From the human T2T-CHM13v2.0 reference genome, Homo sapiens, in NCBI RefSeq assembly GCF_009914755.1, contig NC_060925.1: a stretch of 64,000 nt of DNA, one strand, 5' to 3'. Shown piece after piece: positions 62,609 through 63,672 of the stretch. Each line of letters begins with the position of its first letter. The stretch's first letter is position 1. Position numbers and translations under genes: made by a program. Under the pieces are notes generated by a model, which made no database searches, was not told the origin of the DNA, and saw only the letters and a program-made list of their open reading frames with translations.

Positions 62609-63672
62609 GAACAGGAGCATGCTCTGTCAAAGAGAATTAACCTTTCCAAAGGTACTACTAGACTTTTTAATCCATACACACACGCACGGATCTATTTATT
62701 ATTACAAAAGAAGAAAATATGTTTTTTCCTGCTTTTATAACTGTAAAATGGAATGTTCTTCTTACCTTTAACCTTATGATTGAGCTGTCCATATCAGGTT
62801 TTTTTTTCTACTGACTATTTATTGGGACTAGCTCACTTTATTAATTATGCATCCTGATATCTTATAGAATGGATAGTGTATTTCAATATTATTAATTAAG
62901 TGGGCCTTTGTTAGATATAAAGCAAGATACCTCCAGTAGGTCCTGTTAGCAGTAAGTTTTATATTGTGGAGGTGAACAAGGTATTTTTGTGTAAATCAGT
63001 TTACTAAATTGTATTATTTTCAAGCTAGATTGTGATGGTAAGGTTAAGTAAGGCAAATGTAGTATTTTAAAATACATGATGAGGTACAGATTAAAAATCA
63101 CTTGCTCAGGATTACATATGTGTGTAGAGTTGCTGATATACTAGGTTCATGGCCATAATTGTTGTACTGTCTGTTAAAGCTTAATTGAAAACTAATTTAG
63201 TCCCACAATGTACTTCTTATTACTTTACTTACAAATAAGTAAATTTAACTGAAAATATAGATGGTGGTTAAGCAACATATGAGAAGAAAGGCATGTTTAT
63301 TCAGGAATCATTGGTAAGATCTATAAAAATACACTTTTAAAAATGTCACACAGAGTGTAATGCCTGCTTTAACTGAGTCACTTATAATGTTCTTCAGGAA
63401 GCATATTAAAAGTTCTTCACTCAGCTCTTACGCTTTCCCTTTCTCATTCTTCCTGCCTCTTGATCTCTTGTTTTTAAAATCTTCCTCCTTATTTTGTAGA
63501 CACTGCTCTCCTGTTCACTACTTCTTCTCTGTCTTTACGTCTCATCACTGGGCCTCTCTCAGTGTCTGTTTTCCCAACCTTCATCCCAAATTCCAGCTGT
63601 ATATCTACAACCAGTTGGTCAGGTAACTTTGCACCTTTTTCAGTGCACTCTTTGATAGAGCATGCTCTGTTC
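62609..63672 (+). promoter_or_regulatory. Long-range complementary pair (62609-62634 / 63648-63672) able to loop out the cassette exon; putative splicing-regulatory RNA duplex
   Basis: gaacaggagcatgctctgtcaaagag versus the reverse complement of ctctttgatagagcatgctctgttc: 25 bp with one bulged G and one G-U pair; GCATG in both arms. Confidence 0.65.
63500..63622 (+). CDS. CEP350: Putative alternative cassette exon of CEP350 (123 nt, phase 2-2): (K)HCSPVHYFFSVFTSHHWASLSVCFPNLHPKFQLYIYNQLV(R)
   Basis: Strong cttcctccttattttgtag acceptor, CAG|gtaact donor, length 3n, stop-free in exactly the frame required by the upstream phase-2 exon (part of ORF 63360..63626). Confidence 0.7.

What the first reader, a model, noticed from the sequence alone, without database searches (positions are those of the whole stretch)
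62609..63672. 25-bp long-range RNA duplex looping out the cassette exon, with RBFOX motifs buried in both arms
Seen: 62609-62634 (gaacaggagcatgctctgtcaaagag) is complementary to 63648-63672 (ctctttgatagagcatgctctgttc) over 25 bp, with one bulged G and one G-U pair, across about 1 kb of non-repeat sequence. The 3' arm starts 26 nt after the cassette donor. A further 6-bp helix (aaaggt 62648-53 / accttt 63633-38) could extend it toward the donor. Both arms contain GCATG (62617-21, 63660-64), with additional TGCATG at 62107-12 and 62602-07. Established: (U)GCAUG is the RBFOX element, which promotes inclusion when downstream of an exon, and intronic long-range duplexes can promote skipping by looping exons out. 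Inference: a structural switch in which the duplex keeps the exon skipped by default, while RBFOX binding in neurons or muscle competes with pairing and allows inclusion. This is the best candidate for an undescribed system in the window.
Basis: partly seen in the sequence, partly recalled or inferred. Interest (0 to 1): 0.88.

Follow-up and report, generated by a model that had tools for sequence, protein, structure and literature searches.

The report
Intronic RNA helix enclosing optional CEP350 exon
Two unique 25-base stretches on either side of an optional CEP350 exon can pair into a very stable RNA helix that would loop the exon out, a plausible but untested example of an already described way of controlling splicing.

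Summary
62609-62634 pairs with 63648-63672 over 25 bp, with one bulged G and one G-U. The helix is -40.3 kcal/mol and has pair probabilities of 0.52-1.00 (22 of 25 at 0.98 or more) in a 2.2-kb fold. It encloses a 123-nt in-frame exon found in 6 of 27 RefSeq models, all predicted. The arms, their flanks and the 1,013-nt spacer are single-copy in T2T-CHM13, with no homology beyond the arms. No shuffle (0 of 25) came near its energy, and 264 kb of real sequence held no comparable isolated pair.

- The arm motifs are AGCAUG, a by-product of a palindromic core.
- GCAUG enrichment is weak (5 against 1.5 expected).
- Freeing a motif costs 15-20 kcal/mol and still leaves a helix of -24 to -29 kcal/mol. 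Equilibrium competition by RBFOX is therefore implausible.
- A UGCAUG at the helix foot stays accessible, which fits RNA-bridge geometry.
- Six exons present in all 27 models are enclosed by duplexes at least as strong.
- The exon is 69% pyrimidine with PTB-like tracts.

Loop-outs carrying RBFOX2 sites are already catalogued. Conservation, CLIP and inclusion data could not be tested.

The parts
62609..62634 (+). 5' arm of the long-range helix, in the intron 866 nt upstream of the cassette exon's acceptor. It holds AGCAUGC at 62616-62622 and is itself nearly palindromic.
63648..63672 (+). 3' arm of the helix, starting at intron position +26 after the cassette donor. It holds AGCAUGC at 63659-63665.
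63500..63622 (+). Optional 123-nt exon. It is in frame (phase 2) and would insert 41 codons after about codon 1855 of 3117. It is 69% pyrimidine, against 32-55% for the other 20 exons in the window. The donor context is CAGGTAACT.
62602..62607 (+). UGCAUG two bases 5' of arm 1. Keeping it unpaired costs only 1.2 kcal/mol when the helix is formed. The helix would place it next to about +50 of the cassette donor, which is RNA-bridge geometry.
62640..62653 (+). Local palindrome (ACCTTT CC AAAGGT) that folds on itself.
63633..63638 (+). 3' half of the proposed 6-bp helper helix. It is complementary to 62648-62653 but is not paired with it in any fold computed.
63499..63518 (+). Acceptor G plus the first 19 nt of the exon. 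This is an alternative partner of arm 1 (-23.4 kcal/mol) in folds of the nascent chain before arm 2 exists. It is not significant against a null (about the 6th percentile).
63673..63722 (+). Pyrimidine tract downstream of arm 2, including a (TC)n run at about 63696-63710. The full 100 nt after the donor (63623-63722), of which this is the distal half, is 75% pyrimidine and holds 5 CTCTCT, against 0.47 per kb in the window. These are PTB-like motifs (the motif assignment is recalled).
63400..63499 (+). Long polypyrimidine tract and acceptor of the cassette exon. It is 73% pyrimidine and holds 6 TCTT.

Best explanation
What it is. This is a single-copy 25-bp inverted repeat lying in the two introns that flank an optional 123-nt CEP350 exon. 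On the sense pre-mRNA it is predicted to form a very stable long-range helix of -40 kcal/mol. That helix closes a 1,013-nt loop containing the exon's acceptor, the exon and its donor.

Most likely function. It acts as an exon loop-out element of the known 'pair of complementary intronic regions' kind. It brings the outer intron parts together and sequesters an exon that is already poorly defined (pyrimidine-rich, with no purine-rich enhancers). This lowers the exon's inclusion.

Role of RBFOX. If RBFOX takes part, the physically plausible route is not prying the helix open. It would more likely dock on the accessible UGCAUG at the foot of the helix. The helix carries that motif to about 50 nt downstream of the donor, which is RNA-bridge geometry.

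Shown: the sequence, its uniqueness, the thermodynamics, the geometry and the annotation. Inferred: that the helix forms in cells, that it changes splicing, and any role of RBFOX.
For: Strength of the helix.
- Exact 25-bp pairing at -40.3 kcal/mol.
- It is retained in the MFE and centroid of a 1161-nt fold.
- Pair probabilities are 0.52-1.00 in a 2.2-kb context.
- Arm 1's strongest other partners are -23.4 (spacer), -24.1 (7.6 kb of upstream intron) and -18.3 (downstream intron). Arm 2's are -16.7, -22.2 and -16.9.

Rarity.
- 0 of 25 shuffles reached -35 kcal/mol.
- 0 of 400 random intronic 26-mers found a partner better than -31.3 in the next 1 kb.
- The window holds 49 stronger 32-nt pairs. 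Of these, 48 have an arm in a masked repeat and 1 is a (CA)n/(TG)n pair.
- In 200 kb of neighbouring chr1 sequence, all 10 unmasked inverted repeats of 20 nt or more with at most 1 mismatch have another explanation. One is a microsatellite pair. Seven are pieces of two long inverted duplications. One is the flank of a 916-nt inverted duplication of dispersed repeats. One is a local palindrome split by a dispersed ~290-nt repeat.

Uniqueness.
- The arms, flanks and spacer are single-copy.
- There is no homology beyond the arms. With the arm masked, the alignment score is 14, inside the shuffle range of 12-22.

Geometry and strand.
- Arm 2 lies 26 nt from a donor that, read against the recalled donor consensus, departs at one of its nine positions. 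The exon is optional, in 6 of 27 models.
- The mismatch is G-U on the gene's sense strand (-40.3). It becomes C/A on the antisense strand (-36.0).

Precedent. Validated loop-outs are weaker than this one: PHF20L1 exon 6 at -23.6 and CASK exon 19 at -21.6 kcal/mol. In both, blocking oligonucleotides and compensatory mutants changed skipping (PMC10573301, passages). Exons looped out by such pairs have lower inclusion, more so for more stable helices (PMC8052449, passages).

The UGCAUG 62602-07 stays free at a cost of 1.2 kcal/mol.
Against: - No conservation, covariation, in-cell contact, CLIP or inclusion data could be examined.
- Six exons found in 27 of 27 models in the same window are enclosed within 3 kb by predicted duplexes of -45.8 to -66.4 kcal/mol. 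Across the window, 1 of 7 enclosed exons is optional against 1 of 14 non-enclosed. Enclosure alone therefore predicts nothing here.
- By energy alone the helix is not rare. The neighbouring 200 kb has at least 30 unmasked pairs at -40 kcal/mol or lower, mostly in GC-rich stretches and long inverted duplications.
- Chance instances are expected genome-wide, about 8 to 170.
- PMC10573301 reports that several other contact-supported pairs probed with oligonucleotides had no apparent effect on splicing.
- PMC8052449 reports that the most stable pairs are depleted within 75 nt of splice sites.
- The exon's composition offers a sufficient alternative reason for skipping.
- Equilibrium folding ignores proteins, helicases and co-transcriptional kinetics.
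Confidence: 0.4

Rival explanations
1. The pair is a neutral inverted repeat with no role in splicing. It is a rare product of chance or of a mutational process such as template switching at the palindromic core. The exon is skipped by default because it is a poorly defined, pyrimidine-rich, probably young exon flanked by PTB-like tracts.
For: - The exon is 69% pyrimidine, against 32-55% for the other 20 exons. Its flanks are 73-75% pyrimidine. There are 5 CTCTCT in the 100 nt after the donor, against 0.47 per kb in the window.
- The exon appears only in predicted models, 6 of 27.
- Six constitutive exons are enclosed by duplexes at least as strong.
- About 8 to 170 such pairs are expected genome-wide by chance.
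- The arms differ by one transition and one indel, which is compatible with a recent neutral origin (alignment; the dating is inference).
Against: - The per-window chance is 1.3e-4 to 3.5e-3.
- No comparable isolated unique pair occurs in 264 kb of real sequence.
- The position, 26 nt from the donor of the only non-repeat optional exon in the window, would be a second coincidence.
- The PTB motif reading is recalled knowledge, not a test.
Confidence: 0.4
2. The helix keeps the exon skipped, and RBFOX binding to the GCAUG inside the arms competes with pairing and releases the exon in neurons or muscle.
For: - GCAUG lies in both arms, with pair probability of 0.999 or more.
- Arm 1 is transcribed about 1 kb before arm 2, so a kinetic block is conceivable (inference).
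- A loop-out whose arm overlaps an RBFOX2 eCLIP peak and responds to RBFOX2 knockdown is described for GPR126 (PMC8052449).
Against: - Exposing a GCAUG costs +15.2 to +20.0 kcal/mol. This is more than the roughly 12 kcal/mol implied by a nanomolar RRM affinity (a recalled figure).
- With both motifs open, the flanking helices still close the loop at -25.6 kcal/mol.
- The motifs are AGCAUG and follow automatically from the palindromic core.
- Before arm 2 exists, arm 1's GCAUGC is predicted to pair with the upstream GCAUGU, and then with the exon start.
- Enrichment is weak.
Confidence: 0.07
3. The helix serves another double-stranded-RNA process rather than linear exon choice. Candidates are back-splicing of the enclosed exon into a circular RNA, or A-to-I editing and binding of dsRNA-binding proteins.
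For: - Flanking complementary introns circumscribe circular RNAs, and complementary pairs overlap editing sites (PMC8052449 and PMC10790352, passages).
- A 25-bp helix is near the lower length limit for such proteins (recalled).
Against: - A single 123-nt exon is short for a circle.
- The only paper naming a CEP350 circular RNA says nothing seen here about this exon (search listing only).
- No editing or circular RNA data could be examined.
Confidence: 0.05
4. It is a DNA-level feature. Two copies of a palindromic protein-binding site (core GAGCATGCTC, which fits the RRRCATGYYY half-site pattern recalled for p53-family factors) happen to lie 1 kb apart.
For: Each arm is itself nearly palindromic, and the arms also match as a 13-nt direct repeat.
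Against: - Complementarity extends 7 bp and 5 bp beyond the shared palindrome, and only in the inverted orientation.
- No regulatory element is annotated here. The nearest is an MPRA silencer at 64494-64694.
- A single half-site is not a full site.
Confidence: 0.03

Closest known systems
Exon loop-outs by pairs of complementary intronic regions (PHF20L1 exon 6, CASK exon 19; GPR126 exon 24 with an RBFOX2 site in one arm)
   Same: Two intronic stretches in the flanking introns pair and enclose a cassette exon. The helix is nearly perfect and an RBP motif lies in an arm. The predicted effect is more skipping (PMC10573301; PMC8052449).
   Different: At -40 kcal/mol and 25 bp it is much stronger than the validated cases (-21.6 and -23.6). 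One arm is only 26 nt from the donor, where the most stable catalogued pairs are reported to be depleted. Conservation, in-cell contacts and mutational proof are all missing here. The enclosed exon is known only from predicted models.
RBFOX RNA bridges (ENAH exon 12, KIF21A; Lovci et al. 2013, known here only through citations in PMC8052449 and PMC10790352)
   Same: A UGCAUG within 50 nt of one arm (2 nt here) and the regulated exon within 50 nt of the mate arm (26 nt here). These are the geometric criteria used in PMC8052449.
   Different: In the described bridges the distal site and the exon lie on the same side, so the exon is not enclosed. Here the same helix also loops the exon out, so the two effects would oppose each other. 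No CLIP or knockdown evidence is available.
Inverted Alu pairs flanking exons (exon skipping, circular RNA formation)
   Same: Intronic complementarity on both sides of an exon. Five such pairs enclose other CEP350 exons in this window.
   Different: The arms here are single-copy and 25 bp long, not dispersed repeats of about 300 bp. The Alu-enclosed exons are in all 27 models.
Competing docking/selector helices (Dscam, ATE1 and other mutually exclusive exon clusters; review PMC10790352)
   Same: Arm 1 has two alternative partners, the exon start (-23.4) and arm 2 (-40.3), used one after the other in nascent-chain folds.
   Different: There is only one exon and no cluster. The weaker pairing is not significant against a null.

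Membership tests
Exon loop-out by a pair of complementary intronic regions (PCCR type) | Two intronic regions of 10 nt or more, less than 10 kb apart, with hybridisation energy of -15 kcal/mol or lower | tested here: met
   25 bp, 1013 nt apart, -40.3 kcal/mol. This falls in energy group IV (-30 or lower) of PMC8052449.
Exon loop-out by a pair of complementary intronic regions (PCCR type) | The arms lie in the two introns flanking a cassette exon | tested here: met
   The arms at 62609-62634 and 63648-63672 enclose exon 63500-63622, which is in 6 of 27 models.
Exon loop-out by a pair of complementary intronic regions (PCCR type) | Both arms lie in evolutionarily conserved intronic regions, ideally with compensatory substitutions | not testable with these tools
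   No vertebrate genome or alignment is reachable. The catalogue tables are in closed supplements. CEP350 occurs 0 times in the main texts of PMC8052449 and PMC10573301.
Exon loop-out by a pair of complementary intronic regions (PCCR type) | The helix forms in cells (RIC-seq or PARIS contacts) and disrupting or restoring it changes inclusion | not testable with these tools
   No read data or experiments are available. Only equilibrium folding was done.
RBFOX RNA bridge | An RBFOX motif within 50 nt of one arm and the exon within 50 nt of the other arm | tested here: met
   UGCAUG 62602-07 lies 2 nt from arm 1. The exon end lies 26 nt from arm 2. The motif is accessible at +1.2 kcal/mol.
RBFOX RNA bridge | [quoted passage not shown] | not testable with these tools
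   No CLIP or knockdown data are available. The search 'CEP350' + 'RBFOX' found 7 papers, none on this exon judging by title and abstract.
   GCAUG 62617-21 and 63660-64 have pair probability of 0.999 or more.
   Opening costs +15.2 to +20.0 kcal/mol. The residual helices of -23.8 to -28.6 kcal/mol still close the loop. This is an in-silico equilibrium result only, and a kinetic block is not excluded.
Dispersed repeat or transposon terminal inverted repeats | Further copies in the genome, homology extending beyond the arms, and a target-site duplication | tested here: not met
   The sequence is single-copy. There is no extended homology. The flanks show no duplication. There is no masked repeat of 100 bp or more.
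Known structured RNA family (Rfam) | A match to a covariance model | tested here: not met
   0 matches at E of 1 or lower in 61500-64000, on both strands.

The most novel reading that the evidence does not exclude
One helix does two opposing jobs in a timed sequence.
1. As the transcript grows, arm 1 first hairpins with the upstream UGCAUG.
2. Arm 1 then covers the cassette exon's acceptor and first 19 nt.
3. Arm 1 is finally captured by arm 2, which loops the exon out. The same helix presents the freed UGCAUG at its foot, about 50 nt past the donor.

Without RBFOX the loop-out gives skipping. With RBFOX the very same helix acts as a bridge that activates the exon. This would be a combined loop-out and bridge switch that needs no melting.
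Probability: 0.07. Interest if true: 0.6.

Novelty: new member of a known kind. Interest (0 to 1): 0.35.

Why it matters
If the helix works, it would be one of the most stable single-copy exon loop-outs in a human gene. It would give a handle for switching a 41-residue insertion in the middle of the centrosomal protein CEP350 with arm-blocking oligonucleotides. It would also be a clean case for asking whether a loop-out and an RBFOX bridge can share one helix. If it does not work, it is a useful negative. It would show that even a -40 kcal/mol single-copy helix next to a donor need not matter, as the six Alu- or microsatellite-enclosed constitutive exons of the same gene already hint.

Tried and rejected
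Transposon or dispersed-repeat origin: rejected. The arms, flanks and spacer are single-copy. There is no masked repeat of 100 bp or more. There is no extended homology. I saw no target-site duplication. window.fa carries no lower-case masking, so repeats shorter than 100 bp or very old ones cannot be excluded.

Helper 6-bp helix: rejected as a structural element.

Known RNA family: none found.

Energy as the only rarity measure: rejected. The neighbouring 200 kb has at least 30 unmasked pairs at -40 kcal/mol or lower, driven by GC content and long inverted duplications. I switched to an identity criterion and checked the two unexplained controls.

Arm 1 pairing with the exon start as a significant element: not supported. 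Its -23.4 kcal/mol sits at about the 6th percentile of 400 random 26-mers.

Literature.
- 'CEP350' + 'RBFOX': 7 papers, none relevant by listing.
- 'CEP350' + 'long-range RNA': 1 paper, irrelevant.
- 'CEP350' with splicing terms: one preprint, read in passages. It concerns 'exon 23', a different exon.
- 'CEP350' + 'PTBP1' + 'splicing': 7 papers, none relevant by listing.
- Circular CEP350 RNA names: 1 paper, listing only.
- I therefore found nothing in print on this helix or this exon. The catalogue tables that might list it are supplements, which are closed.

Conservation: not tested, because no tool reaches vertebrate DNA. I ran no further search on the 40-residue exon peptide. The length filter (0.55-1.75 times the query) cannot return 3,100-residue CEP350 proteins, so a blank would mean nothing. 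Building a spliced protein to use as a query would have meant typing a joined sequence, so I left that out.

Papers as seen.
- PMC8052449, PMC10790352, PMC10573301 and the bioRxiv preprint 10.64898/2026.09.07.749963: passages via find.
- PMC10691357: abstract and outline only.
- Lovci 2013 and Solnick and Lee 1987: not held, known only from citations and recall.

Recalled, not from any call: the RBFOX affinity, the donor consensus against which the cassette donor was read, the PTB motif preferences, the p53 half-site pattern, dsRNA length limits, and neutral substitution rates.
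Full report
OBSERVATION. The sequence read matches the finding base for base. Arm 1 is 62609-62634 and arm 2 is 63648-63672. The optional exon ends at 63622, with donor context CAG|GTAACT, so arm 2 begins at intron position +26. The repeat finder reports the ungapped core as 62615-62634 / 63648-63667: 20 nt, 95% complementary, 1013 nt apart. 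Among the 25 pairs it showed (of 28 found), none of the other pairs of 20 nt or more exceeds 77%.

RNAduplex gives 5 bp, one bulged G, then 20 bp including the G-U pair 62626-63656, at -40.3 kcal/mol. The helix survives in the MFE and the centroid of a 1161-nt fold. In a 2201-nt partition function its 25 pairs have probabilities of 0.52-1.00, and 22 of them are at 0.98 or more. The lower values mark the bulge sliding between 62614 and 62615.

Its 5' half lies in a local palindrome (62640-62653) that folds on itself.

Because of this, each arm is nearly palindromic, the arms also match as a 13-nt direct repeat, and a GCATG in one arm forces a GCATG in the other.

IS IT MORE THAN CHANCE, AND IS IT A REPEAT?
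- Among 32-nt windows seeded by 8-mers within 100-3000 nt, the window has 49 pairs stronger than the candidate (-42.2 with flanks). Of these, 48 have at least one arm in a masked repeat. The other is a (CA)n/(TG)n pair.
- 0 of 25 dinucleotide shuffles of the 50,129 unmasked bases reached -35 kcal/mol, and the best was -34.2.
- A Gumbel fit gives 1.3e-4 per 50 kb, or about 8 instances genome-wide. A looser combinatorial estimate gives 3.5e-3 per window, or about 170 genome-wide.
- 0 of 400 random intronic 26-mers found a partner better than -31.3 in the following 1 kb.

Real DNA is not a shuffle, so I also scanned 200 kb of neighbouring chr1 sequence. By energy alone the helix is not rare there. 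At least 30 unmasked pairs reach -40 kcal/mol, mostly in GC-rich stretches and long inverted duplications. This counts against using energy as the sole criterion.

By identity (20 nt or more, at most 1 mismatch, unmasked) the neighbour region has 10 pairs and the window has 2. The 10 are explained as follows:
- one microsatellite pair;
- seven collinear pieces of two long inverted duplications, judged from their shared antidiagonals;
- the flank of a 916-nt, 95% inverted duplication of dispersed repeats;
- a 53-nt local palindrome split by a dispersed ~290-nt repeat.

The candidate is therefore the only isolated long-range pair in unique sequence in 264 kb.

It is single-copy. The 20-nt arm pattern hits only the two arms at 1 mismatch or fewer, plus 7 scattered 2-mismatch places. 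The stretches around both arms and the 1013-nt spacer have no other copy. The one extra hit is to the T/CT-rich tract. No masked repeat of 100 bp or more lies between 61514 and 64226. With the arm masked, the best inverted alignment of the surroundings scores 14, inside the shuffle range of 12-22. Rfam gives nothing.

THE EXON. 63500-63622 is present in 6 of 27 RefSeq CEP350 models, all predicted (XM), and is absent from NM_014810.5. It is 123 nt long, enters in phase 2, and is annotated as coding. It would insert 41 codons after about codon 1855 of 3117. Its donor reads CAGGTAACT. Read against the donor consensus as I recall it, that departs at a single position, and the acceptor has a long pyrimidine tract.

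The exon is compositionally odd. It is 69% pyrimidine, against 32-55% for the other 20 exons in the window. Its flanks are 73-75% pyrimidine. The 100 nt after the donor hold a (TC)n run and 5 CTCTCT, against 0.47 per kb in the window. From recalled knowledge these are PTB-type repressor motifs. A pyrimidine-rich exon also lacks purine-rich enhancers. This alone could explain default skipping.

MECHANISM. Geometry and thermodynamics fit an exon loop-out. The helix closes a 1013-nt loop holding the acceptor, the exon and the donor, and it is far stronger than either arm's alternatives. Arm 1's best other partners are -23.4, -24.1 and -18.3 kcal/mol. Arm 2's are -16.7, -22.2 and -16.9.

Validated human loop-outs are weaker (PHF20L1 at -23.6, CASK at -21.6). 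They respond to arm-blocking oligonucleotides and to compensatory mutants (PMC10573301). Across the catalogue, looped-out exons have lower inclusion, more so for more stable helices (PMC8052449).

There is also evidence against. Six exons found in 27 of 27 models in this very window are enclosed within 3 kb by duplexes of -45.8 to -66.4 kcal/mol. One of 7 enclosed exons is optional, against 1 of 14 non-enclosed. PMC10573301 notes that several other supported pairs showed no splicing effect. PMC8052449 reports that the most stable pairs are depleted within 75 nt of splice sites.

RBFOX. The arm motifs are AGCAUG. Local enrichment is weak. There are 5 GCATG in 1.9 kb against about 1.5 expected (p about 0.02). 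There are 2 TGCATG in 2.5 kb against about 0.43 expected (p about 0.07). There are none in the 1.6 kb after arm 2.

Forcing either GCAUG single-stranded costs +15.2 to +20.0 kcal/mol. Even with both open, the flanking helices still close the loop at -25.6 kcal/mol. Equilibrium competition therefore cannot release the exon, and only a kinetic block before arm 2 is made remains possible.

In contrast, the UGCAUG at 62602-07, two bases from arm 1, stays free at +1.2 kcal/mol. The helix would carry it to about +50 of the donor. That meets the geometric criteria for an RNA bridge used in PMC8052449.

Folds of the growing chain suggest a sequence of states:
1. Arm 1 first pairs its GCAUGC with the upstream GCAUGU.
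2. It then pairs with the acceptor G and the first 19 nt of the exon.
3. It finally pairs with arm 2.

The middle state is not significant against the null.

COMPARISON AND NOVELTY. Exon loop-outs with an RBP site in an arm are described (1135 candidates, including GPR126 exon 24 with RBFOX2). RBFOX bridges are also described (296 candidates, including ENAH). Both are in PMC8052449 and reviewed in PMC10790352. PMC10691357 (abstract) extends such structures beyond conserved regions. This is therefore at most a new, unusually strong member of a known kind.

Membership is met for energy, spacing, enclosure and bridge geometry. It is untestable for conservation, in-cell contact, CLIP and mutational proof. 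It is not met for the competition model's energetic requirement or for any repeat family. Whether the pair is already in the published catalogue could not be checked, because the supplements are closed. CEP350 does not occur in the main texts read.

VERDICT.
- Best reading, confidence 0.4: a loop-out helix that lowers inclusion of a weak exon, with a possible bridge role for the adjacent UGCAUG.
- Main rival, 0.4: a neutral inverted repeat beside an exon that is skipped for compositional reasons.
- Interest: 0.35.

Noticed in passing
window 31848-31877 and 33478-33507: A (CA)n run and a (TG)n run in the two introns flanking exon 32764-32900 could pair over about 30 bp (-45.8 kcal/mol in the 32-nt window). 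The exon is nevertheless in 27 of 27 models.
   Followed up: partly
window 41928-42020: The other optional exon of the window (93 nt, in 5 of 27 models, all predicted) overlaps a masked repeat. It is probably an exonised repeat.
   Followed up: no
window exons 9650-10710, 14120-14283, 38240-38409, 51931-52077, 54828-54985: Five exons present in all 27 models are enclosed within 3 kb by inverted masked repeat pairs. The predicted 32-nt duplexes are -48 to -66 kcal/mol.
   Followed up: partly
window 62607-62628 with 63499-63518: Arm 1 can also pair with the cassette acceptor G and the first 19 nt of the exon (-23.4 kcal/mol). The exon start resembles arm 2. In nascent-chain folds this pairing precedes capture by arm 2, but it is not significant against a null.
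   Followed up: yes
window 63400-63722: The exon and both flanks form a block that is 69-75% pyrimidine, with a (TC)n run at about 63696-63710. All three reading frames of the exon are open by eye, and the annotated frame gives an aromatic- and histidine-rich peptide.
   Followed up: partly
window 54983-54991: The donor of the upstream constitutive exon 27 reads AAAGTATTT. Against the recalled donor consensus it looks much weaker than the cassette's CAGGTAACT.
   Followed up: no
just past the window end, 64494-64694 in window coordinates (chr1:179430494-179430694): RefSeq lists an MPRA-defined silencer fragment in the intron between the cassette exon and exon 64736-64935.
   Followed up: no
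L030 about 3835-6589 (chr1:179173835-179176589): Two long unmasked inverted duplications (173835-174009 against 174474-174641, and 174632-174727 against 176507-176589, in coordinates offset by 179,000,000). There is also a 53-nt palindrome split by a dispersed ~290-nt repeat at 175058-175466.
   Followed up: partly
L016 6884-7799 (chr1:179036884-179037799): A 916-nt stretch that matches its own reverse complement at 95% identity. It is built from two inverted copies of a dispersed ~300-nt repeat.
   Followed up: partly
window 62615-62624 and 63658-63667: The palindromic core GAGCATGCTC in both arms fits the RRRCATGYYY half-site pattern recalled for p53-family factors. No test was made.
   Followed up: no
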